Virus genome (UHGV): UHGV-0333516
Source: a virus
Length of the DNA stretch: 10,733 nt
Strand: one strand, 5' to 3'
Position 1 is the stretch's first letter. Each line of letters starts with the position of its first letter. Shown here one piece after another: positions 1 to 10,733 of the stretch. The notes below the pieces were generated by a model. The model worked only from the letters and a program-made list of their open reading frames with translations. It did not search any database and was not told where the DNA came from. Both the position numbers and the translations under genes were made by a program.

Positions 1-160
1 ATATTATTGATACAGAGTGTATTAACGGAAAAATCGTTGTTGCCCATATCAATGGTGGGCAAGAAGCGACACTCAAAAAATTTGTTGAGGACTGGCCGAA
101 CAGGTATCTCGTCCCACTAAATCCTAACTATAAAACTATTGAATTCTGTATCAATAATAT
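1..160. repeat. 16-bp perfect inverted repeat (1-16 vs reverse complement of 145-160) flanking a 128-bp segment
   Basis: atattattgatacaga at 1-16 equals the reverse complement of 145-160; both copies encode IIDTE in the same codon phase on opposite strands. Confidence 0.9.
3..146 (+). pseudogene. orphan C-terminal S24-peptidase segment of the CI-like repressor, in opposite orientation to the gene body
   Basis: Plus frame from position 3, with no start codon, translates to IIDTECINGKIVVAHINGGQEATLKKFVEDWPNRYLVPLNPNYKTIEF. This aligns with the LexA/CI region holding the catalytic Lys (VTVKRL...LLPENSEFKPIVV). It continues exactly where the minus-strand repressor ORF breaks off. Confidence 0.6.
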
Positions 161-614
161 CTGGCTCTACGATAACGATAGAACCTTCTGGTATCGATGG
201 TGAGCCGAGGGGATTGGTCATTGAATCACCACGGACCCGTAGTGCAAATGCCATTTCTGATACAAGGGCGGTAGTATAAACCCACTCTTCAGCATCTTCT
301 TTCCTGACACCAGGCTCCGTCATTGTCCATGAACCCGCCTGAACCCACGAGATTAGGGGGACTTTTTTAACTGCGAATATTTCAGGTTTTAGATTTATCT
401 TTGGTTCAGGCGAGCCTTTTCCGCTAACAAGCCACAGAGGATCGCATTTAAGTGCGTTGGCTAGGGCTTGAAGGTTGGCTCCATTTGGTTGGTAGTCGTC
501 CTTTTCCCATCCAGTAACCGTGACACGGTTCACACCAGTCAAATCAGCCAGTGCTTGTTGTGTCAGGTTCAGTTCTTTTCGCCTTTGGCGAATACGATCA
601 CTCATGTTCATCAT
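117..614 (-). CDS. CI-like prophage repressor (HTH_XRE + N-terminal part of S24 LexA-like peptidase), apparently truncated
   Basis: N-terminal HTH (LTQQALADLTGVNRVTVTGWE) and Ser-motif GDSM are present. The ORF ends ...IVIVEPDIIDTEFNSFIVRI*, before the Lys-containing half of the S24 domain. The start abuts an operator-like site (leaderless-type arrangement). Confidence 0.8.
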   Translation of the reverse strand: MMNMSDRIRQRRKELNLTQQALADLTGVNRVTVTGWEKDDYQPNGANLQALANALKCDPLWLVSGKGSPEPKINLKPEIFAVKKVPLISWVQAGSWTMTEPGVRKEDAEEWVYTTALVSEMAFALRVRGDSMTNPLGSPSIPEGSIVIVEPDIIDTEFNSFIVRI

Positions 615-709
615 GTAGGCAATCCTACCACATGCCCATGTAGGATTCTTGACATTGGCATGTTGGATATCCTACATTTCTGCTTAACGTAATTTAACGG
701 GAGACAGAA
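615..709. promoter_or_regulatory. divergent cI/cro promoter-operator region with three operator-like sites
   Basis: Sites gtaggcaatcctac (615-628), gtaggattcttgac (640-653) and gttggatatcctac (662-675) lie about 22-25 bp apart. A consensus -35 TTGACA (649-654) with candidate -10 TACATT (673-678) faces cro. A candidate leftward -10 (taggat on the minus strand, 622-627) sits 7 nt before the cI ATG. Confidence 0.5.
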
Positions 710-907
710 ATGCGGAAATCCGACGTGATTAATTATTTCGGCGGAGTTTGTAAAATCGCCGAAGCCCTAGGTATTAAGCATCCGTCTGTTTCAGAGTGGC
801 CTGAGATTATTCCTGAAGGCCGAGCGTACCAGTTAGAAAAAATTACTAACGGGAAACTGAAAGTTGACGTGTCTTTATATCAAAAGACTAACAGTGCTGC
901 GGCATAA
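710..907 (+). CDS. Cro-like small HTH regulator (YdaS-like)
   Basis: 65-aa ORF divergent from the repressor, RBS gggag 8 nt upstream, HTH-like motif FGGVCKIAEALGIKHPSVSEW. Confidence 0.6.
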   Translation: MRKSDVINYFGGVCKIAEALGIKHPSVSEWPEIIPEGRAYQLEKITNGKLKVDVSLYQKTNSAAA

Positions 908-1844: not shown

Positions 1845-1932
1845 TTCTGCAATTCCGGGACGTTACACTGCTCAGGCACCTTATAAAGCGGGTGCCGGGA
1901 TTGGCGTCCTGAAATTGTCAACGGCGATGTAT

Positions 1933-1952
1933 GACGCGCCAGCGTCTTTTTT
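1933..1952 (+). terminator. candidate intrinsic terminator
   Basis: gacgc-gcca-gcgtc stem-loop followed by tttttt; lies inside the 386-aa track ORF. Confidence 0.4.
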
Positions 1953-2118
1953 ATCGTCCGCATTTGCTCACATCCAGATTATGGTGGGCTGGGCGGGGGC
2001 ACCGAAAGGTGCGCCGGTCTCCGTTGACGCCGGTTACGCCAACCCCGTCCAGTTCACCACCAGTGAAATTGGCGTTTCCGGTGGTGGAAGTTTTTCACTG
2101 TCAACGGAGGCTGCCATC

Positions 2119-2897: not shown

Positions 2898-3193
2898 ACT
2901 GTTTTCAGTTTGTGTGCGGATGTGCTTTCGATAACCCGATTCAGCGCCTAATTATGTTGCGTGTTTTGATGTCGGGTTCTTCAGACGGTGAAGGCGAGAG
3001 AGTTATTGATCATCAGGTGCTTGCTGATTTCTGCTGTTGTTCTAAGCAAGCGATATTCAGGGAAACCCTGGCACTGGAAAGAGCTGGTTATCTTCATATC
3101 CGAAAAATTGCAACGCTTACTATTGATGCAAAAGCCAGACTACAACCTGCGCGTGGCTACACAATTCTCATGCTGCGGAAGGAGGTTGTATGA
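2894..3193 (+). CDS. hypothetical protein, possible DNA-binding
   Basis: 99-aa ORF, GTG start overlapping the upstream stop (GTGA), RBS gggagg upstream; alternative start at the internal Met. Confidence 0.45.
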   Translation: MNCFQFVCGCAFDNPIQRLIMLRVLMSGSSDGEGERVIDHQVLADFCCCSKQAIFRETLALERAGYLHIRKIATLTIDAKARLQPARGYTILMLRKEVV

Positions 3194-4185
3194 GCCGTTA
3201 CGCCCCCACACCGGAAGTTATGGCTATTGGTCAAATTAATATTTCCGGCAATGTTACACCTGCGACCTGGTGGAAATATATTCGACTACCCAGTGGGCGT
3301 CCGGATGCGACGGCTATCGCTCTGCTTTCAGAGATCGTTTACTGGTACCGCCCGACAGAGGTCAGGGATGAGCACACCGGAGCGTTGCTGGGATATCGCA
3401 AGCGTTTTCAGGGCGACAAACTGCAAAGAAGCTACCAGGCGTTTGCTGAGCAGTTTGGTTTCGGGAAAAGGGAAACCGCAGATGCGCTGAAGCGTCTGCG
3501 CGATGCAGGGTTTATTACTCTGGATTTACGCACGGTGGAAATGCTCGATGGGGTGAAATGCAGCAATATTTTGTTTGTCGGGATCAACCCACAGGCAATT
3601 GCGGCCATCACCACACCTTCTTCTGTTTCGCCAGAAAGTAACAGCAATAATGCAATCAGCGATACAGCTATTACGTTAAAACGGAACACCCCCCGACGTC
3701 ATAACGGAACAGGGGATACGCCGAATGTTGATACAAATACAGAGATTACTACAGAGATTACTACAGAGATTACAACGGAGACTAAAAACACTATTGGCGC
3801 ATCCGCTGACGCGTCTGCACCAGCGCGTTCTGCCAGACAGGAATATTCACCGGAATTTGAACAGGCCTGGCAGGAATATCCCAAACGTGCTGGTGGTAAT
3901 TCAAAATCCGCCGCTTTTAAAGCCTGGAAAGCCCGAATCAGGGAAGGTGTGACACCCGAAACCATGCTCGACGGTGTGAAACGCTATGCCGCCTGGGTGC
4001 GTGTCTCTGGAAATACCGGTACCCAGTTCGTGAAGCAGGCGTCGACGTTCTTTGGTCCGGATCGTCATTTCGAAGAATCCTGGGAAGTTCCTGCGGTATC
4101 TGCAGCCAGACGCGAGGACCCGTACTTCAAAGCCAGTTACGACAACGTGGACTACAGCCAGATCCCGGAAGGATTCAGGGGGTGA
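3190..4185 (+). CDS. phage replication protein with DnaT-like C-terminus
   Basis: 331-aa ORF with strong RBS ggaaggagg; C-terminal ...DYSQIPEGFRG resembles the C-terminus of primosomal protein DnaT (...SQIPPGFRG); central TEITTEITTEITTE linker. Confidence 0.65.
   Translation: MSRYAPTPEVMAIGQINISGNVTPATWWKYIRLPSGRPDATAIALLSEIVYWYRPTEVRDEHTGALLGYRKRFQGDKLQRSYQAFAEQFGFGKRETADALKRLRDAGFITLDLRTVEMLDGVKCSNILFVGINPQAIAAITTPSSVSPESNSNNAISDTAITLKRNTPRRHNGTGDTPNVDTNTEITTEITTEITTETKNTIGASADASAPARSARQEYSPEFEQAWQEYPKRAGGNSKSAAFKAWKARIREGVTPETMLDGVKRYAAWVRVSGNTGTQFVKQASTFFGPDRHFEESWEVPAVSAARREDPYFKASYDNVDYSQIPEGFRG
3739..3786. repeat. tandem 12-bp direct repeats (about 3.5-4 copies) inside the replication gene
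   Basis: acagagattact x2, acagagattaca, then degenerate acggagactaaa. Confidence 0.8.
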
Positions 4186-4187
4186 TC

Positions 4188-4280
4188 ATGAGTCTTTTGA
4201 ATGAAGTTCAGAAATTCATTGAAGCCCATCCGGGGTGTACTTCCGGAGACATTGCGGATGCTTTTTACGTGGGGGCTTAA
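4188..4280 (+). CDS. 30-aa small ORF (winged-helix N-terminal-like fragment)
   Basis: ATG overlaps the upstream stop; stop overlaps the Dam ATG (TAATG); MSLLNEVQKFIEAHPGCTSGDIADAF resembles the N-terminus of PapI/FaeA-type small regulators. Confidence 0.25.
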   Translation: MSLLNEVQKFIEAHPGCTSGDIADAFYVGA

Positions 4281-4933
4281 TGAGTAATAAATATTGCCAG
4301 GCGCTGGTAGAACTGCGGAACAAACCAGCCCATGAACTGAAGGAAGTGGGCGATCAGTGGCGCACGCCGGACAACATTTTCTGGGGAATTAACACCTTGT
4401 TTGGTCCGTTTGTTCTGGATCTGTTCACTGACGGTGATAACGCCAAATGTGCCGCGTATTACACGGCGGAAGACAACGCGCTGGCGCATGACTGGTCAGA
4501 ACGTCTTGCGGAGCTTAAAGGTGCTGCCTTTGGTAATCCCCCATACAGCCGCGCCAGTCAGCATGAGGGGCAATACATCACCGGCATGCGTTACATCATG
4601 AAACATGCCAGTGCCATGCGTGATAAGGGCGGGCGCTATGTTTTCCTGATCAAAGCGGCCACCAGCGAAGTGTGGTGGCCGGAAGATGCAGATCATATTG
4701 CTTTTATTCGCGGGCGTATTGGTTTTGAACTGCCAGCCTGGTTTATCCCGAAAGACGAAAAGCAGGTGCCAACAGGTGCTTTCTTCGCTGGTGCTATTGC
4801 TGTTTTCGACAAGACCTGGAAGGGAGCGGCAATCAGCTACATCGGGCGCGATGAACTTGAGGCATGTGGTGAGGCGTTTCTGGCGCAGGTTCGCCAGCAG
4901 GCGGAAAAACTGGTCAGGGAGATGGCGGCATGA
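4280..4933 (+). CDS. phage Dam-type DNA N6-adenine methyltransferase
   Basis: GNPPY motif (AAFGNPPYS); likely start ATG 4280 with G-rich RBS; the track ORF starts at 4235 in the same frame. Confidence 0.7.
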   Translation: MSNKYCQALVELRNKPAHELKEVGDQWRTPDNIFWGINTLFGPFVLDLFTDGDNAKCAAYYTAEDNALAHDWSERLAELKGAAFGNPPYSRASQHEGQYITGMRYIMKHASAMRDKGGRYVFLIKAATSEVWWPEDADHIAFIRGRIGFELPAWFIPKDEKQVPTGAFFAGAIAVFDKTWKGAAISYIGRDELEACGEAFLAQVRQQAEKLVREMAA

Positions 4934-5256
4934 CGACATTAACTCAATGCCAGCAGCAGGTGCTGGATATGCTGATTTCTTATCAGAAAGAACGTGGCTT
5001 CCCGCCAACCAATCAGGAGGTGGCAACCATGCTGGGATACCGTTCGGTGAATGCAGCGGTGGAGCATCTTCGCGCACTGGAGAAAAAAGGTGTCATCACG
5101 ATAAAGCGTGGCGTGGCCCGGGGTATCACTCTTCATACCGCGGTGAAGGACGACGACAGCGAGGCGGTCGGGATTATCCGCGCCCTGCTTGCCGGTGAGG
5201 CAAACGCCAGGCTGCGTGCAGCCCACTGGTTACATGAGAGGGGCCTGAAAGTATGA
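4930..5256 (+). CDS. LexA N-terminal DNA-binding-domain protein (no peptidase domain)
   Basis: QQQVLDMLISYQKERGFPPTNQEVATMLGYRSVNAAVEHLRALEKKGVITIKRGVARGITL aligns with E. coli LexA residues about 6-70 (winged HTH); there is no S24 domain. Confidence 0.75.
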   Translation: MTTLTQCQQQVLDMLISYQKERGFPPTNQEVATMLGYRSVNAAVEHLRALEKKGVITIKRGVARGITLHTAVKDDDSEAVGIIRALLAGEANARLRAAHWLHERGLKV

Positions 5257-5648
5257 AGCTAATACTGCCTTTTCCGCCCAGCGTGAACACGTACTGGCGA
5301 CACCCCAACAAAGGGGCGTTTGCTGGTAAGAGCCTGATAAGCGCGGCGGGGCGAAAATTCCAGAGCGCGGCGTGTGCAGCAATAGTTGAGCAGTTACGTC
5401 GTCTGCCGAAACCAACGTCGGCACCTGCTTCAGTGGAGATCGTGTTGTTTCCTCCGGATAACCGGATCCGCGATCTGGACAACTATAACAAGGCGCTGTT
5501 TGACGCCCTGACCCACGCGGGTGTGTGGGAAGACGACAGACAGGTGAAAAGAATGCTGGTGGAGTGGGGACCGGTTATCCCGGAGGGGAAGGTCGAGATC
5601 ACTATCAGTAAGTACGAAAAAGCGAGTTGCAAATTAGCAACTCGGTAA
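5253..5648 (+). CDS. rusA: RusA Holliday-junction resolvase
   Basis: 131-aa ORF with RusA-type motifs (LPFPPSVNTYWRH..., RDLDNYNKALFDALTHAGVWEDD); position in the nin-like region. Confidence 0.85.
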   Translation: MKLILPFPPSVNTYWRHPNKGAFAGKSLISAAGRKFQSAACAAIVEQLRRLPKPTSAPASVEIVLFPPDNRIRDLDNYNKALFDALTHAGVWEDDRQVKRMLVEWGPVIPEGKVEITISKYEKASCKLATR

Positions 5649-5693
5649 CGGAATTGAGCAACACCCTAAATTTGGGTATTACCTCGTTAAAGA

Positions 5694-5713
5694 TACTGTA
5701 TTTATGAACAGTG
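5694..5713. promoter_or_regulatory. candidate LexA (SOS) box
   Basis: tactgtatttatgaacagtg: perfect CTGT-N8-ACAG core, 16/20 match to TACTGTATATATATACAGTA; overlaps a candidate -35 (tgaaca) with -10 tattaa at 5728-5733. Confidence 0.5.
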
Positions 5714-5810
5714 TATCCTTGATAACTATTAAAAATCGCAGTAAGTTCATCCTGCATCAACGAAAAGGGAGTGCAGTCCCGCTCGTGGATAAAAATTTGT
5801 GGAGAAACCA

Positions 5811-6626
5811 ATGAATCAGTTGCTTGTAATTGATGGCGTTTCTGTGCGCCAGTACTTCGAATCTAACTACTGTCTTAACGACCTTCAGAAAGCTGCTCTT
5901 CTTGCCGCTGGTGAGAATCGCTCCTCCCGTTCGCTGGAAGTTCACGAGTTTATGCGTCGTCCTGAAACGAAGGCTCTTGTGGAATTATTGGAAGAAGAAA
6001 CTACGGGAGATTCCCGTAGTATTCCTGTCATCACCATTCAGGGGCGCAATGGTGGGACGTATGTCTGTAAAGAGCTGGTCTATGCATATGCAATGTGGAT
6101 CAGCCCGGCATTCAGCTTAAAAGTGATACGTACTTTTGATGCGCTTCATAATTCATCACCAGAAGAAACCACATCCGACAAAATTAAATCCGGGGTCATT
6201 CTGCTTGAATCAGCAGCAAAGACTCTAAATCTGTCAAACTCCTCGAAACTTGGTGCATACCAGAAATTATCAAAGGTAGCTGGTCTTCCTGAACTTATGC
6301 CGATCTATGCCATTGATGCACCTGCTGATGCGCCAGATGGTTCAAGCCGCCCTACGCTGTCGCTGAGTGCACTGCTGAAGCAGTATGGTATCCGCCTGAC
6401 GGCTAATCAGGCATATCACCAGATGGCGAAGCTGGGGATCGTTGAACAACGCGAACGATACAGCCGTACCGCGATTAACAACATCAAAAAATTCTGGTCG
6501 CTGACAGCGAAAGGTTGCATGTTCGGCAAGAACATCACCAGTCCCGCAAATCCGCGCGAGACGCAGCCGCATTTCTTCGAATCCCGATTCCCTGAGCTGT
6601 TAAAGCTGCTCGATACCGTTCATTGA
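5811..6626 (+). CDS. KilA-N domain protein, antirepressor-like
   Basis: N-terminal KilA-N-like region (...PVITIQGRNGGTYVCKELVYAYAMWISPAFSLKVIRTFDAL); ATG 5811 with RBS gtggag; the track start 5799 is a GTG in the same frame. Confidence 0.65.
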   Translation: MNQLLVIDGVSVRQYFESNYCLNDLQKAALLAAGENRSSRSLEVHEFMRRPETKALVELLEEETTGDSRSIPVITIQGRNGGTYVCKELVYAYAMWISPAFSLKVIRTFDALHNSSPEETTSDKIKSGVILLESAAKTLNLSNSSKLGAYQKLSKVAGLPELMPIYAIDAPADAPDGSSRPTLSLSALLKQYGIRLTANQAYHQMAKLGIVEQRERYSRTAINNIKKFWSLTAKGCMFGKNITSPANPRETQPHFFESRFPELLKLLDTVH

Positions 6627-6627
6627 G

Positions 6628-7623
6628 GTGACCGTGAGAGCACTACTGACCCCTGAAATTGCCCCGCGTATGGGGATCGTATTGTTCAGACCCGGTTCAG
6701 AGCTGATGCCCCTGTTTATGCAGGGGCGTGTCCTGCTGGAGCCTGAGCCGGAACGTTATTCATCTTTTGCCAGTGGTGCCGTTCCGGCAGCATCACAACC
6801 GCTGGCGGATGATCCTGCCGTTCGGGTCGTGTTCCGCAATGAGGCAGTGATCCGTCGTGCTGGTGGCGTGGAATGTCTTGAAAGCTGGTTACTTCGTGAA
6901 AAAGGTTGCCAGTGGCCTCATTCCGACTGGCACAGCGAGAACATGACCACAATGCGACACGCGCCGGGCGCAATCCGTCTGTGCTGGCACTGCGATAACC
7001 AGCTGCGCGATCAGTTCACGGAACGGCTGGAATCAATGGCAACGGATAACTGTGCCCGCTGGGTGTTGTCTGTTGTGCGTCGGGATCTCGGTTTTGATGA
7101 CAGTCACGTTGTGACAATGCCGGAACTGTGCTGGTGGCTGGTTCGTAATGATCTGGCGGATGCCTTACCGGAAAGTGCAGCCCGTAAGGCACTGAGATTA
7201 CCGAAGCCTGTTGTGCCGTCTGTCACCCGGGAGAGTGACCTTGTGCCTTCGGTTCCGGCCACCAGCATCATCCAGAATAAAGCGAAAAAGGTGCTGGCGC
7301 TGAAAGTGGATCCGGAGTCGCCGGAGTCTTTTATGTTACGCCCAAAACGTCGCCGCTGGGTTAACGAAAAGTACACGCGCTGGGTTAAGACGCAGCCGTG
7401 TGCATGTTGTGGAAAGCCTGCTGATGATCCCCACCACCTGATAGGCCACGGTCAGGGGGGAATGGGTACAAAAGCGCATGACCTCTTCGTGCTGCCTTTG
7501 TGCAGAAAGCATCACGACGAGCTGCATGCGGATACCGTGGCATTTGAAGAGAAGTATGGCTCCCAGCTGGAGCTGATATTTCGTTTTATCGATCGTGCGC
7601 TGGCAATAGGCGTGCTGGCCTGA
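6628..7623 (+). CDS. DUF968-like prophage protein with C-terminal HNH-like Cys/His motif
   Basis: C-terminal CACCGKPADDPHHLIGHGQGGMGTKAHDLFVLPLCRKHHDELH; sits immediately upstream of Q as in other E. coli prophages. Confidence 0.6.
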   Translation: MTVRALLTPEIAPRMGIVLFRPGSELMPLFMQGRVLLEPEPERYSSFASGAVPAASQPLADDPAVRVVFRNEAVIRRAGGVECLESWLLREKGCQWPHSDWHSENMTTMRHAPGAIRLCWHCDNQLRDQFTERLESMATDNCARWVLSVVRRDLGFDDSHVVTMPELCWWLVRNDLADALPESAARKALRLPKPVVPSVTRESDLVPSVPATSIIQNKAKKVLALKVDPESPESFMLRPKRRRWVNEKYTRWVKTQPCACCGKPADDPHHLIGHGQGGMGTKAHDLFVLPLCRKHHDELHADTVAFEEKYGSQLELIFRFIDRALAIGVLA

Positions 7624-7640
7624 TTTTGTGGAGAAAGTTG

Positions 7641-8012
7641 ATGCGTGATATTCAAATGGTTCTTGAACGTTGGGGGGCATGGGTGGCAAATAATCACGAG
7701 GATGTGGAATGGTCATCTGTTGCTGCAGGTTTTAAGGGATTAATTCCTTCGAAAGTAAAATCCCGCCCGCAATGTAGCGATGACGATGGCCTGATCATTA
7801 GCTCTGCGATGACAGTTCTTAAGAAAAAGGAACCGTATCAATACGAATTACTGGAAATGTATTATGTGTATGGGGTTACATTACGGGTGTTGGGGGTAAA
7901 ACTGGGGATATCACTTAATCAGGTTGTTATCAGACTGCAGAAAGCTGAAGGGTTTATTGACGGTTGTCTGGCAATGTTGGGGGTATCTTTAGAAATTGAT
8001 TGTTACATATAG
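7641..8012 (+). CDS. late-gene antitermination protein Q (small Q family)
   Basis: MRDIQMVLERWGAWVANNHEDVEWSS...SKVKSRPQCSDDD...RLQKAEGFIDGCLAMLGV matches the Q-family pattern of E. coli cryptic prophages; ATG 7641 with RBS gtggag. Confidence 0.8.
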   Translation: MRDIQMVLERWGAWVANNHEDVEWSSVAAGFKGLIPSKVKSRPQCSDDDGLIISSAMTVLKKKEPYQYELLEMYYVYGVTLRVLGVKLGISLNQVVIRLQKAEGFIDGCLAMLGVSLEIDCYI

Positions 8013-8981: not shown

Positions 8982-9179
8982 ATGCTAAAACAGCAAGATA
9001 TGACCGAAACCGCCAGAGTGGTGTTTAATGAATTGAGCGTCACCGAACCGGCGACAGTCGGGGAGATTGCGCAGAATACTTACCTTTCACGCGAACGCTG
9101 CCAGTTAATACTGACCCAGCTGGTTATGGCGGGTCTGGCAGACTATCAGTTCGGTTGTTACAGACGCCTTCCGCAGTGA
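8982..9179 (+). CDS. small winged-helix-like protein (PapI/FaeA-like by eye)
   Basis: 65 aa from ATG 8982 (RBS agaaggga); the track start 8958 is in the same frame; TVGEIAQNTYLSRERCQLILTQLVMAGLA resembles small wHTH regulators. Confidence 0.45.
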   Translation: MLKQQDMTETARVVFNELSVTEPATVGEIAQNTYLSRERCQLILTQLVMAGLADYQFGCYRRLPQ

Positions 9180-9193
9180 AGGCTTTTTTATTT
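9166..9193 (+). terminator. intrinsic terminator overlapping the stop of the small wHTH gene
   Basis: gccttc-cgcagt-gaaggc stem-loop followed by ttttttattt. Confidence 0.6.
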
Positions 9194-9329: not shown

Positions 9330-10379
9330 ATGCTTAATACTGTAAAAATATCCAGTTGTGAGTTAATCAACGCCGACTGCCTGGAATTTATCCGGTCGTT
9401 ACCCGAAAATTCTGTTGACCTGATAGTCACGGACCCGCCGTACTTTAAAGTGAAGCCTGAGGGCTGGGATAACCAGTGGAAGGGCGACGATGATTACCTG
9501 AAGTGGCTGGACCAGTGTCTGGCGCAGTTCTGGCGGGTGCTGAAACCTGCCGGAAGTCTTTACCTGTTCTGTGGTCATCGCCTGGCATCTGATATCGAAA
9601 TCATGATGCGTGAACGCTTCAGTGTGCTGAACCATATTATCTGGGCGAAGCCGTCCGGACGCTGGAACGGATGCAACAAGGAAAGCCTGCGGGCGTATTT
9701 CCCCGCCACAGAGCGCATTCTGTTCGCGGAACATTATCAGGGGCCGTATCGTCCGAAAGATGCCGGGTATGAGGCGAAGAGCAGGGCACTGAAACAGCAT
9801 GTGATGGCCCCGCTGATTGCTTACTTTCGTGATGCGCGCGCTGCCCTGGGGATAACGGCAAAACAGATTGCAGATGCCACAGGAAAGAAAAACATGGTGC
9901 CGCACTGGTTCAGTGCCAGTCAGTGGCAGCTACCGAACGAAAGCGATTATCTGAAATTACAGTCGCTGTTTGCCCGGGTGGCAGAAGAGAAACATCAGCG
10001 GGGAGAACTGGAAAAGTCCCATTACCAACTGGTCAGCACATACAGTGAGCTGAACCGGCAGTATACGGAACTGCTGAGTGAATATAAAAATTTGCGGCGG
10101 TATTTCGGTGTGACGGTGCAGGTGCCGTACACCGATGTGTGGACGTATAAACCGGTGCAGTACTATCCAGGGAAACATCCGTGCGAAAAACCGGCAGAAA
10201 TGCTGCAGCAGATAATCAGCGCAAGTAGTCGTCCTGGTGATCTGGTTGCGGATTTTTTCATGGGGTCGGGTTCAACGGTAAAAGCGGCGATGGCACTGGG
10301 GCGTCGTGCGATTGGTGTTGAGCTGGAGACCGGACGTTTTGAGCAGACAGTCAGGGAAGTTCAGGATTTAATCGTTTGA
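9330..10379 (+). CDS. DNA methyltransferase (beta-class N6A/N4C type; motif IV DPPY precedes motif I)
   Basis: LIVTDPPY near the N-terminus and DFFMGSGST near the C-terminus; 349 aa. Confidence 0.85.
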   Translation: MLNTVKISSCELINADCLEFIRSLPENSVDLIVTDPPYFKVKPEGWDNQWKGDDDYLKWLDQCLAQFWRVLKPAGSLYLFCGHRLASDIEIMMRERFSVLNHIIWAKPSGRWNGCNKESLRAYFPATERILFAEHYQGPYRPKDAGYEAKSRALKQHVMAPLIAYFRDARAALGITAKQIADATGKKNMVPHWFSASQWQLPNESDYLKLQSLFARVAEEKHQRGELEKSHYQLVSTYSELNRQYTELLSEYKNLRRYFGVTVQVPYTDVWTYKPVQYYPGKHPCEKPAEMLQQIISASSRPGDLVADFFMGSGSTVKAAMALGRRAIGVELETGRFEQTVREVQDLIV

Positions 10380-10428: not shown

Positions 10429-10504
10429 GGCCCTTTAGCTCAGTGGTGAGAGCGAGCGACTCATAATCGCCAGGTCGCTGGTTCAAATCCAGCAAGGGCC
10501 ACCA
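10429..10504 (+). tRNA. tRNA-Ile(CAU) (ileX/ileZ-like; tRNA-Met not excluded)
   Basis: 76-nt cloverleaf: acceptor ggccctt/aagggcc, D-stem gctc/gagc, anticodon loop ctcataa (CAT), T-loop ttcaaat, 3' ACCA; close to E. coli ileX. Confidence 0.8.
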
Positions 10505-10513
10505 TATCACATA

Positions 10514-10590
10514 CCGCCATTAGCTCATCGGGATAGAGCGTCAGCCTTCGAAGCTGGTTGCGCGGGGTTCGAGTCCTCGATGGCGGTCCA
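10514..10590 (+). tRNA. tRNA-Arg(UCG)
   Basis: 77-nt cloverleaf: acceptor ccgccat/atggcgg, D-stem gctc/gagc, anticodon loop cttcgaa (TCG), T-arm cgggg-ttcgagt-cctcg, 3' TCCA. Confidence 0.75.
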
Positions 10591-10615
10591 TTATCTGTAC
10601 CCTGCGTTGTTAGCT

Positions 10616-10733
10616 CCCGCGCAACCAGCTTCGAAGGCTGACGCTCTATCCCGATGAGCTAATGGCGGTATGTGATATGGTGGCCCTTGCTGGATTTGAA
10701 CCAGCGACCTGGCGATTATGAGTCGCTCGCTCT
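10616..10733 (-). repeat. perfect 118-bp inverted duplicate of 10449-10566 (partial tRNA-Arg and tRNA-Ile copies), running to the window end
   Basis: 10616-10733 is the exact reverse complement of 10449-10566; the 49-bp unique spacer 10567-10615 holds the tRNA-Arg 3' end. Confidence 0.9.

What the first reader, a model, noticed from the sequence alone, without database searches (positions are those of the whole stretch)
5649..6626. SOS box upstream of a KilA-N antirepressor-like gene
tactgtatttatgaacagtg (5694-5713) has the perfect CTGT-N8-ACAG LexA core and overlaps a candidate promoter about 100 bp upstream of a 271-aa KilA-N-domain protein. LexA-repressed antirepressors are the induction mechanism of several enterobacterial prophages with uncleavable repressors (Gifsy-type, coliphage 186 Tum). 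This fits the apparently Lys-less repressor at 117-614.
Basis: partly seen in the sequence, partly recalled or inferred. Interest (0 to 1): 0.65.

Follow-up and report, generated by a model that had tools for sequence, protein, structure and literature searches.

The report
SOS box before prophage KilA-N gene
A near-perfect binding site for the bacterial DNA-damage repressor LexA sits beside a conserved internal promoter in a lambda-like E. coli prophage, so DNA damage probably switches on a KilA-N regulator gene, but there is no support for the idea that this protein is needed to inactivate an uncleavable phage repressor.

Summary
TACTGTATTTATGAACAGTG is at 5694-5713, in the 162-bp gap between rusA and a 271-aa KilA-N gene (5811-6626). 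It scores like proven E. coli LexA sites; no site this good appeared in 3000 simulated windows.

The "Lys-less repressor" comes from the window's edge. Bases 1-144 are the reverse complement of the repressor's 3' end. In all 140 complete E. coli genomes carrying it, the gene encodes a 217-aa lambda-CI-type protein with the Ala-Gly site, the Ser (GDSM) and the Lys (KK).

The box-bearing kilA-N allele occurs with five immunity types. All are cleavable-type repressors, each shared with box-less alleles. Most orthologues have no box and simply follow rusA in the early operon.

A promoter (TTGATA-17-TAAGTT, 5719-5747) is conserved in 9 of 10 lineages; the box ends 5 bp upstream of it.

Best reading: an SOS-derepressed internal promoter for kilA-N, and probably for DUF968 and antiterminator Q downstream. 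The KilA-N protein's target is unknown.

Also present are a truncated LexA homologue (4930-5256), a second conserved LexA-like box (9338-9357), a conserved hairpin (5760-5786) and a C4/isrK-Rha module. I file it as a new member of a known kind, of moderate interest.

The parts
5694..5713 (.). LexA (SOS) box TACTGTATTTATGAACAGTG
   Evidence: Perfect CTGT-N8-ACAG core; approximate heterology index 4.9; 0 of 3000 simulated windows reach this score. It is invariant in 42 of 42 IMG/VR loci carrying this allele. Phage SfIV has G20A, which is closer to consensus.
5719..5747 (+). Candidate sigma-70 promoter P_kilA: -35 TTGATA (5719-5724), 17-bp spacer, -10 TAAGTT (5742-5747). Predicted start near 5754.
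   Evidence: Best-scoring candidate in 5560-5830. A TTGnnn or ATGCTC -35 and a TAnnnT -10 at exactly 17 bp are kept in 9 of 10 diverged lineages although the spacers differ. It fell below the stricter consensus scan.
5760..5786 (+). Conserved stem-loop in the predicted 5' leader: outer stem 5760-5763/5783-5786, inner stem 5767-5770/5777-5780, loop GTGCAG 5771-5776
   Evidence: In 22 lineages the loop bases UGCAG are invariant. All 5 stem pairs show changes on both sides. Covariation score is 0.61 against 0.24 in shuffles (0 of 500 reach it). No Rfam family matches.
5801..5804 (+). Shine-Dalgarno GGAG, 6 nt before the ATG
   Evidence: GTGGAGA is conserved upstream of the start in nearly all orthologues.
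5811..6626 (+). kilA-N gene, 271 aa: KilA-N domain (aa 10-114), a helical linker, and a C-terminal alpha/beta domain (about aa 181-270) of unknown family
   Evidence: Pfam KilA-N E = 1.3e-15. PHROG 129 'transcriptional regulator' E = 4e-109. AlphaFold2 model with mean pLDDT 77. KilA-N fold matches in BFVD. No significant PDB match.
5704..5814 (+). 36-codon upstream ORF. Its ATG lies inside the box and its TGA overlaps the kilA-N ATG. Probably not a real gene.
   Evidence: It is in frame with kilA-N, as an N-terminal extension, in some lineages and in the 11-bp-deletion variant, but not in this window or three other lineages.
5623..5644 (.). Palindrome at the 3' end of rusA, just upstream of the box. 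It is terminator-like only when read on the minus strand.
   Evidence: The Gifsy LexA boxes are likewise preceded by terminator-like palindromes (PMC3121763).
5253..5648 (+). rusA (Holliday junction resolvase), the upstream neighbour
   Evidence: Pfam RusA E = 1.3e-14.
4930..5256 (+). 108-aa truncated LexA homologue: LexA DNA-binding domain only, no S24 domain
   Evidence: Pfam LexA_DNA_bind E = 2.9e-19. It aligns to E. coli LexA residues 2-86, with recognition helix NAAVEHL against NAAEEHL. The family is 106-113 aa, and its 'AG' is not conserved.
6628..7623 (+). DUF968 / HNH-like gene, 2 nt after kilA-N; probably co-transcribed
   Evidence: Pfam DUF968 E = 1.5e-81. The kilA-N / DUF968 / antiterminator order is conserved in Citrobacter, Kluyvera, Cedecea, Leclercia and Kosakonia.
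7626..8012 (+). Q-like late antiterminator gene, 3 nt after DUF968
   Evidence: PHROG 79 'anti-termination protein Q-like' E = 2.4e-44.
117..614 (-). 5' part (165 codons) of a lambda-CI-type repressor gene, cut off by the inverted segment at the window's start
   Evidence: HTH_3 plus the first half of Peptidase_S24. The full-length 217-aa form is present in reference genomes.
1..144 (+). Inverted copy of the repressor's 3' end (it encodes ...IIDTECINGKIVVAHINGGQEATLKKFVEDWPNRYLVPLNPNYKTIE on the + strand). A 16-bp inverted repeat lies at 1-16 and 145-160.
   Evidence: No matching record is collinear with window 1-720.
9338..9357 (.). Second LexA-like box, TACTGTAAAAATATCCAGTT, over codons 3-10 of the DNA methyltransferase gene
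   Evidence: Approximate heterology index 4.0. It is kept as CTG-N10-CAG in methyltransferase orthologues of 62-98% identity, including Providencia, Rosenbergiella and Kluyvera.

Best explanation
The 20-mer is a functional operator for host LexA. It is placed against an internal sigma-70 promoter, P_kilA (-35 at 5719-5724, -10 at 5742-5747), in the late-early ('nin') region of a lambda-like prophage. In a lysogen, LexA bound at 5694-5713 (about -61 to -41) would hinder RNA polymerase. After DNA damage, RecA-stimulated LexA cleavage would free P_kilA. The prophage would then transcribe kilA-N, and probably the tightly packed DUF968 and Q antiterminator genes downstream, independently of transcription from pR.

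The KilA-N protein is a DNA-binding-type regulator whose target is unknown. The prophage's own repressor is a standard RecA-cleavable CI, so this gene is not required to inactivate it. The SOS-controlled promoter is an added, lineage-specific input.

What is shown and what is inferred:
- Shown: the site's quality, its position, the conservation of the promoter, the gene identities, and the cleavable nature of the repressor.
- Inferred: LexA binding, repression from this position, co-transcription of Q, and any function of the protein.
For: - Site quality is far above chance.
- The box lies in a 162-bp intergenic region, 5 bp upstream of a promoter whose -35 and -10 hexamers and 17-bp spacing are kept in 9 of 10 diverged lineages.
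- Raoultella has a LexA-like box at the homologous position, CGCTGGATGTTTGTTCAGTG, approximate index 7.6.
- Edwardsiella has an unrelated intergenic sequence with its own box, GGCTGTTTTAATATCCAGTA, at -83.
- Two LexA-like sites were found upstream of 38 full-length orthologues, against 0.22 expected.
- Compared with related lineages (TGGTGGATAAATGAACAGTG and similar), three of the five differences in this lineage move the left half towards the LexA consensus.
- The module is in 186 of 5426 complete E. coli genomes, with the box intact in every locus I read.
- kilA-N, DUF968 and Q are separated by 1-2 nt (a 1-nt and a 2-nt gap), in an order conserved across genera.
- Gifsy prophages carry a LexA-controlled operon at the equivalent map position (PMC3121763).
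Against: - The box lies upstream of the -35 hexamer (centre about -50) rather than over the -35, -10 or +1 positions where most LexA operators sit, so repression may be weak.
- The -10 matches consensus at only 3 of 6 positions, and the strict consensus scan found no promoter.
- All box-bearing loci are 88% identical or more in the protein and almost identical in the intergenic DNA, so conservation of the box there carries no weight.
- Most orthologues lack a box, and four related lineages have GTG instead of CTG in the left half.
- In those relatives part of the 20-mer is rusA coding sequence, which could explain the conserved right half.
- I found no expression or binding data in the literature.
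- Weak terminator-like hairpins at 7557-7619 could limit read-through into Q.
Confidence: 0.55

Rival explanations
1. The KilA-N protein is a LexA-repressed antirepressor that binds and inactivates the prophage's CI-like repressor, as in the Gifsy phages, coliphage 186 and N15, and this is how the prophage is induced.
For: - There is a strong LexA box upstream of the gene.
- A KilA-N N-terminal domain 43% identical to this one occurs in the protein at the 'ant' position of the mnt-arc-ant immunity region of the P22-like phage Emek.
- P1 KilA shares the domain.
- LexA-controlled antirepressor operons lie at the same map position in Gifsy prophages.
Against: - The repressor is a full lambda-CI-type S24 protein with an Ala-Gly site, Ser and Lys. 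Its apparent truncation is an inversion at the window's edge.
- The box-bearing allele pairs with five cleavable repressor types and shows no preference over box-less alleles.
- Most family members are expressed only as part of the pR operon, that is, after repression has already been lifted.
- The protein matches no antirepressor domain family (ANT, P22_AR, AntA) in Pfam, PHROGs or NCBIfam.
- The window has a separate C4/isrK-Rha module of the P1 immI / Gifsy-1 anrP type (PMC4825925).
Confidence: 0.12
2. The box is mainly the operator of the phage's own truncated LexA homologue (4930-5256). Made as an early protein, that homologue binds next to the -35 of P_kilA and activates or times transcription of kilA-N, DUF968 and Q. 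This would resemble gp6 of Bacillus phage GIL01, a truncated LexA homologue that activates the late promoter, which host LexA represses. Host LexA may compete for the same site.
For: - A LexA-DNA-binding-domain-only gene lies two genes upstream, and the order LexA-NTD / rusA / kilA-N / DUF968 / antiterminator is kept across at least six genera.
- The recognition helix is nearly that of LexA.
- In Edwardsiella the LexA-NTD gene directly follows kilA-N, with overlapping stop and start codons, downstream of a LexA-like box.
- A site centred near -50 and ending 5 bp from the -35 suits an activator better than a repressor.
- Relatives carry near-LexA palindromes (GTG- or ATG-N10-CAG) at or inside the same promoter, which host LexA should bind poorly.
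- The GIL01 precedent is PMC6182141.
- A second conserved LexA-like box sits at the first gene after a strong terminator downstream of Q.
Against: - The LexA-NTD gene is about as common in phages whose kilA-N has no box or promoter: 27 of 37 loci against 40 of 42.
- The protein has no LexA dimerisation domain, and its oligomeric state is unknown.
- Positions 44 and 45 of the recognition helix vary within the family.
- The near-palindromes in relatives partly overlap rusA coding sequence.
- Nothing here shows binding.
Confidence: 0.2
3. The match has no regulatory role. It arose at a recombination junction from a sequence that already carried the right half (ATGAACAGTG, next to the rusA stop codon in relatives), and kilA-N is expressed only from pR.
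For: - The right half pre-exists in relatives where it adjoins or overlaps the rusA stop codon.
- The full box is confined to one nearly clonal allele.
- Its position upstream of the -35 is atypical for LexA repression.
Against: - A score this good was never produced in 3000 simulated windows.
- LexA binds sites of this quality wherever they occur (established knowledge of the E. coli SOS regulon).
- The adjacent promoter is conserved.
- LexA-like boxes recur independently in Edwardsiella and Raoultella orthologues.
Confidence: 0.1

Closest known systems
LexA-controlled dinI-antirepressor operons of Salmonella Gifsy-1/-2/-3 (Lemire, Figueroa-Bossi and Bossi 2011, PMC3121763)
   Same: Both are lambda-like prophages. 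In both, a LexA box lies downstream of the replication genes and after a palindrome, in front of an accessory operon inside the early-right region. Both connect prophage gene expression directly to the SOS response.
   Different: The Gifsy cargo is dinI plus a small antirepressor, with no KilA-N domain reported. The Gifsy repressors are short, lack the Ala-Gly bond and are not cleaved. Here the repressor is a cleavable CI type, the cargo is a 271-aa KilA-N protein followed by DUF968 and Q, and the box lies upstream of the -35.
Tum of coliphage 186 and AntC of N15 (LexA-repressed antirepressors; as described in PMC3121763)
   Same: A LexA-box promoter controls a prophage gene, so DNA damage is sensed through LexA rather than only through repressor cleavage.
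   Different: Those proteins are small (Tum is 146 aa with a DinI-like half) and have been shown to bind their repressors. No such evidence or domain similarity exists here.
GIL01 gp6 / LexA / gp7 control of the late promoter P3 (Fornelos et al. 2018, PMC6182141)
   Same: In both, the phage encodes a truncated LexA homologue with only the DNA-binding domain. In both, LexA boxes lie at a promoter that leads to late gene expression.
   Different: GIL01 is a tectivirus of Bacillus with no dedicated repressor. Its gp6 site overlaps the -35, and both binding and activation were demonstrated. Here the link between the truncated LexA and the box is only positional.
KilA-N domain proteins (Pfam PF04383): P1 KilA and the KilA-N-type Ant of P22-like phage Emek
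   Same: The N-terminal domain is homologous: 37% identity to P1 KilA and 43% to the Emek 'ant' product over about 110 aa.
   Different: The C-terminal two thirds are unrelated to P22 Ant or P1 Ant domains. The gene sits between rusA and Q, not in an immI region with Mnt/Arc or C4 RNA.

Membership tests
Enterobacterial LexA operator (SOS box) | Palindromic CTGT-N8-ACAG core with an AT-rich spacer, in a 20-bp site close to TACTGTATATATATACAGTA | tested here: met
   16 of 20 positions match and the core is perfect.
Enterobacterial LexA operator (SOS box) | Heterology index within the range of sites that bind LexA (the published cut-off of about 12.6 is from my own knowledge) | tested here: met
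   Approximate index 4.9 on a matrix rebuilt from 30 remembered sites, whose own range is 1.0-9.7. The scale is compressed relative to published values, but the site is clearly inside the range. No simulated window out of 3000 reached it.
Enterobacterial LexA operator (SOS box) | Overlaps or lies within the -35 / -10 / +1 region of the regulated promoter | tested here: inconclusive
   The box ends 5 bp upstream of the conserved -35, so its centre is near -50. It would overlap a -10 only if the weaker TTGGGT-16-TACTGT candidate is used.
Enterobacterial LexA operator (SOS box) | LexA binding and SOS-inducible transcription | not testable with these tools
   I found no binding or expression data for this locus in the paper library.
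LexA-controlled antirepressor induction systems (Gifsy, 186, N15) | The cognate prophage repressor is non-cleavable: no S24 catalytic domain or no Ala-Gly bond | tested here: not met
   The native repressor is 217 aa with VQA/G, GDSM and KK. The truncation is an inversion at the window edge. All five repressor types linked to the box allele are S24-type.
LexA-controlled antirepressor induction systems (Gifsy, 186, N15) | A LexA box in front of the gene, outside the immunity region | tested here: met
   The position is equivalent to that of the Gifsy operon.
LexA-controlled antirepressor induction systems (Gifsy, 186, N15) | The gene product is homologous to a proven antirepressor (GfoA/GftA, Tum, AntC) | not tested
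   Those sequences were not at hand. Pfam, PHROGs and NCBIfam give only KilA-N or 'transcriptional regulator'. The known ones are about 70-146 aa against 271 aa here.
LexA-controlled antirepressor induction systems (Gifsy, 186, N15) | The protein binds the repressor and releases it from the operator | not testable with these tools
   This needs pull-down, EMSA or genetic tests.
KilA-N domain family (PF04383) | Significant match to the domain model, and the KilA-N fold | tested here: met
   57.6 bits against a cut-off of 23.8. The AlphaFold2 model matches KilA-N proteins in BFVD at E down to 1.6e-9.
P22 Ant / P1 Ant type antirepressors | ANT, P22_AR_N/C or AntA domains, and a location in an immI region controlled by Mnt/Arc or an antisense RNA | tested here: not met
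   No such domains were found. The gene lies between rusA and DUF968/Q. The C4 and isrK RNAs in the window precede a different, Rha-domain ORF.
Truncated phage LexA homologues (GIL01 gp6-like), for ORF 4930-5256 | LexA N-terminal winged-helix domain without the S24 cleavage and dimerisation domain | tested here: met
   LexA_DNA_bind E = 2.9e-19 in a 108-aa protein. It aligns to LexA residues 2-86.
Truncated phage LexA homologues (GIL01 gp6-like), for ORF 4930-5256 | Binds a LexA-like site at a phage promoter and changes its activity | not testable with these tools
   The only evidence is positional association.

The most novel reading that the evidence does not exclude
Lambda-like prophages of Enterobacterales may carry a private LexA-type circuit. 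A phage-encoded LexA homologue that cannot be cleaved (DNA-binding domain only) would act together with host LexA on LexA-like operators at two places: an internal promoter that drives kilA-N, DUF968 and Q, and the first gene after the late terminator. This circuit would set when the late antiterminator Q is made after DNA damage. It would be a Gram-negative, lambdoid counterpart of the GIL01 LexA/gp6 switch. The conserved GUGCAG-loop hairpin in the kilA-N leader would add a further, post-transcriptional layer.
Probability: 0.15. Interest if true: 0.8.

Novelty: new member of a known kind. Interest (0 to 1): 0.5.

Why it matters
If LexA controls P_kilA, these prophages have a second, repressor-independent line from DNA damage to early-late gene expression, and possibly to the Q antiterminator that turns on lysis genes and, in related phages, Shiga toxin genes. 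They are present in about 3% of complete E. coli genomes, including O104:H4 C227-11, S88 and O55:H7 CB9615, and in Shigella phage SfIV. Such a line would affect how fast and how completely they respond to SOS-inducing antibiotics.

The case also shows that an apparently truncated repressor at the edge of a window should be checked against reference genomes before it is used to infer an induction mechanism.

The truncated LexA homologue, the second conserved box and the conserved leader hairpin are all uncharacterised and experimentally tractable.

Tried and rejected
1. Uncleavable repressor: rejected. The missing Lys-bearing half of the S24 domain is encoded in inverted orientation at window 1-144, and every reference is collinear.
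2. Association of the box with particular immunity types: none found.
3. Phylogenetic footprinting of the box. Among close alleles it is uninformative because the sequences are almost identical. Among 38 full-length orthologues in other genera only 2 have a LexA-like site upstream. Intermediate alleles keep only the right half of the box.
4. Origin of the roughly 110-bp box-bearing segment. Sensitive BLAST against the phage collection found it only at this same position.
5. Known RNA families in the intergenic region: none.
6. Identity of the C-terminal domain. No PDB relative was found by sequence or by Foldseek on the AlphaFold2 model; the best E-value was 0.57, with a scatter of winged-helix proteins. 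BFVD confirmed only the KilA-N fold.
7. The 'AG' in the truncated LexA homologue as a cleavage site: rejected, because it is not conserved in the family.
8. A minus-strand small RNA running from the box region to the 5644-5623 terminator-like hairpin. The candidate promoter TTGATG-17-GATTTT is weak and is not conserved in Kluyvera, so I did not pursue it.
9. The 36-codon upstream ORF or an N-terminal extension. Its frame is inconsistent across lineages, so it is probably not coding.
10. Literature searches for LexA-regulated KilA-N genes or truncated LexA homologues in lambdoid phages found nothing specific.
Full report
**1. What is in the window**

The window is the immunity-to-Q segment of a lambda-like prophage of E. 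coli or Shigella. The genes, in order, are:

| Coordinates | Strand | Feature |
|---|---|---|
| 117-614 | - | CI-like repressor |
| 710-907 | + | Cro |
| 935-1519 | + | CII-like gene |
| 1516-2676 | + | mechanical ORF holding the isrK (1876-1952) and C4 (1977-2064) RNA genes, then a Rha domain |
| 3190-4185 | + | replication initiator |
| 4235-4933 | + | Dam-type methyltransferase |
| 4930-5256 | + | 108-aa protein consisting of only the LexA DNA-binding domain |
| 5253-5648 | + | rusA |
| 5811-6626 | + | the KilA-N gene |
| 6628-7623 | + | DUF968/HNH gene |
| 7626-8012 | + | Q-like antiterminator |
| 9330-10379 | + | second methyltransferase |
| from 10429 | + | tRNA genes |

The rusA-to-DUF968 stretch (window 5400-6700, spanning the kilA-N gene) is 99% or more identical to Shigella phage SfIV and E. 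coli phage PhiR49_1. The box-bearing intergenic segment is present in 186 of 5426 complete E. coli genomes, including O104:H4 C227-11, S88 and O55:H7 CB9615.

**2. The observation**

- The 20-mer at 5694-5713 is exactly as described.
- The CTGT-N8-ACAG core occurs twice in the window against 0.16 expected. The other copy, at 1619, is in coding sequence and scores poorly over the full 20 bp.
- I rebuilt a heterology-index matrix from 30 E. coli LexA sites that I recalled. This is my own knowledge and is approximate. It gives recA 5.0, sulA 4.0 and umuDC 1.0, against published values of about 4.3, 4.7 and 2.8.
- On this matrix the box scores 4.9, inside the range of true sites.
- None of 3000 Markov-simulated windows contained a site that good.
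- The gene is a genuine KilA-N gene with a good Shine-Dalgarno sequence.

**3. The repressor is not Lys-less**

- The minus-strand repressor ORF stops after 165 codons. Window 1-144, read on the plus strand, encodes the missing piece...IIDTECINGKIVVAHINGGQEATLKKFVEDWPNRYLVPLNPNYKTIE.
- BLAST of window 1-720 against complete E. coli genomes gave 142 records. In every one, bases 145-720 match at 95-100%, and the first roughly 160 bases match as a separate piece. No record is collinear with the window. The 6 phage records behave the same way.
- In phage Lys8385Vzw the gene is 654 bp. It encodes a 217-aa protein with VQA/G (the lambda CI cleavage-site motif), GDSM and ATLKKF.
- The inverted piece starts exactly at base 1 and is bounded by a 16-bp inverted repeat (1-16 and 145-160). 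The reference has no left copy of that repeat. The simplest reading is a chimeric contig end, not phage biology.

**4. No link to uncleavable repressors**

- I examined 79 IMG/VR loci with 10-kb flanks. The box-bearing allele (42 loci) is found with S24-type repressors of five clusters (208, 217, 224, 230 and 246 aa). All have an Ala-Gly, a GDSM and a downstream Lys.
- Each cluster occurs about equally with box-bearing and box-less kilA-N alleles: 9/9, 18/16, 3/4, 1/1 and 1/1.

**5. Distribution of the box**

- Alleles about 70% identical, which are the common type in Stx2 phages, SfII, SfV, mEp460 and cdtI, start about 20 bp after rusA. They have no box and no room for a promoter.
- Among 38 full-length orthologues from other Enterobacterales, only Raoultella (index 7.6) and Edwardsiella (index 6.1) have a LexA-like site within 400 bp upstream. 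The background density predicts 0.22.
- LexA control is therefore not a family trait. It is a lineage-specific addition, with at least one independent recurrence.

**6. A conserved internal promoter**

- Alleles 64-88% identical from Kluyvera, Raoultella, Leclercia, Kosakonia, Cedecea and metagenomes have 85-160-bp intergenic regions that align with the window's.
- In 9 of 10 lineages a -35 (TTGATA, TTGCTA, TTGAAG, TTGAAT, TTGAAA, TTGCAT or ATGCTC) and a -10 of the form TAnnnT lie exactly 17 bp apart, although the spacers differ.
- In the window this is TTGATA (5719-5724) and TAAGTT (5742-5747). It is the best-scoring candidate in the region, though it falls below the strict consensus scan.
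- The box ends 5 bp before the -35.
- At the same position Raoultella has CGCTGGATGTTTGTTCAGTG. Four other lineages have GTG instead of CTG in the left half (indices 10-14). In those lineages the left half is the end of the rusA coding sequence.
- Two further lineages carry ATG-N10-CAG palindromes between the -35 and the -10.

**7. Mechanism**

The best-supported reading is that LexA binds next to P_kilA and SOS derepresses it. kilA-N, DUF968 and Q are separated by a 1-nt and a 2-nt gap, and their order is conserved across genera. The transcript therefore probably extends to Q, which would give a repressor-independent route to late gene expression.

Three points weaken this reading:
- The operator position, centred near -50, is unusual for repression.
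- The -10 is weak.
- There are no experimental data.

**8. The truncated LexA homologue**

- ORF 4930-5256 aligns with E. coli LexA residues 2-86. Its recognition helix is almost identical: RSVNAAVEHLRAL against RSPNAAEEHLKAL.
- The family is 106-113 aa, keeps NAAxxHL, and has a conserved helical tail. The 'AG' that lines up with the LexA cleavage site is not conserved.
- The gene order LexA-NTD / rusA / kilA-N / DUF968 / antiterminator holds in at least six genera.
- In Edwardsiella anguillarum the order is rusA, then a LexA-like box, then kilA-N, then LexA-NTD, with the last two overlapping.
- GIL01 gp6 is a precedent for a truncated LexA homologue that activates a late promoter (PMC6182141).
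- This makes a phage-LexA operator a serious rival or complement to the host-LexA reading. Against it, the LexA-NTD gene is also common in phages whose kilA-N lacks a box or promoter.

**9. The protein**

- The AlphaFold2 model (mean pLDDT 77) has a KilA-N domain, a long helical linker and an alpha/beta C-terminal domain.
- PDB searches gave nothing significant.
- The N-terminal domain is shared with P1 KilA and with the protein at the 'ant' position in phage Emek. This is the only link to antirepressors.
- The C-terminal module also occurs fused to Bro-N or Rha-type N-termini in other phages, as expected for this shuffled family of DNA-binding regulators.

**10. Verdict**

The SOS box is real and very likely binds LexA. 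It sits beside a conserved internal promoter for a KilA-N gene. The antirepressor and uncleavable-repressor story is not supported. I file it as a new member of the known class of LexA-controlled prophage promoters. The more novel possibility of a phage LexA-homologue circuit remains open.

Noticed in passing
window 1876-2064 (inside the mechanical ORF 1516-2676): Rfam finds isrK (1876-1952, 62 bits) and C4 antisense RNA (1977-2064, 81 bits), followed by a Rha-domain coding region. This is a P1 immI-like / Gifsy-1 isrK-anrP-like antirepressor-type module right after the cII-like gene. The Pfam 'Phage_ASH' hit (aa 117-212 of the long ORF) falls on the RNA genes, so the 386-aa ORF is probably not one real protein. 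An intrinsic terminator at 1933-1946 fits the 3' end of isrK.
   Followed up: partly
window 9338-9357: A second strong LexA-like box, TACTGTAAAAATATCCAGTT (approximate index 4.0), covers codons 3-10 of the DNA methyltransferase gene. It lies about 150 bp after a strong intrinsic terminator (9166-9190). CTG-N10-CAG is kept in methyltransferase orthologues of 62-98% identity, including Providencia, Rosenbergiella and Kluyvera, although the encoded residues differ.
   Followed up: partly
window 4930-5256: A 108-aa protein made only of the LexA DNA-binding domain plus a conserved helical tail. It belongs to a 106-113-aa family that sits just upstream of rusA and kilA-N in lambdoid prophages of several genera. 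I found no functional study of it in lambdoid phages.
   Followed up: partly
window 5760-5786: A stem-loop with an invariant (G/U)UGCAG loop lies 22-45 nt upstream of the kilA-N start in most of the orthologous lineages examined, 74 nt in L115, and about 32 nt from the true upstream ATG in L086 and L088. It is present whether the region is non-coding, the end of the rusA coding sequence, or an N-terminal extension. The stems covary strongly (0 of 500 shuffles reach the observed score). It matches no Rfam family, and its function is unknown.
   Followed up: partly
window 1-160: The first 144 bases are the reverse complement of the sequence that precedes base 145 in every reference genome, with a 16-bp inverted repeat at 1-16 and 145-160. 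It looks like a chimeric contig end from an amplification or assembly artefact. It truncates the repressor ORF.
   Followed up: yes
related loci L170, L171, L173, L174, L206, L209, L212, L213 and others, about 4.4-6.2 kb upstream of kilA-N: A near-consensus LexA box, TACTGTTTTTACATACAGTA (or ...TTTATATACAGTA), approximate index 1.0-2.5, lies inside the coding sequence of the 230-aa repressor of a different immunity type, in the linker region (...SNTVCKNS...). It was seen in 33 loci.
   Followed up: no
L105 (Edwardsiella anguillarum) 265-1450: The order here is rusA, a 155-bp gap with the LexA-like box GGCTGTTTTAATATCCAGTA (which contains a TAATAT -10-like hexamer), kilA-N, and then a 72-aa LexA-DNA-binding-domain protein whose start overlaps the kilA-N stop. 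This is an independent linkage of the same three elements.
   Followed up: partly
window 3700-3800 (replication initiator ORF 3190-4185): The protein contains the repeat TEITTEITTEITTE. This implies short tandem DNA repeats inside the initiator gene, as with origin iterons in lambda O.
   Followed up: no
window 10429-10733: tRNA-Met(CAT) is annotated as tRNA-Ile in the E. coli O104:H4 homologue. It is followed by tRNA-Arg(TCG) and a partial tRNA-like match on the minus strand at the window's end. This is the usual tRNA cluster downstream of Q in Stx-like phages; no stx genes are in the window.
   Followed up: no
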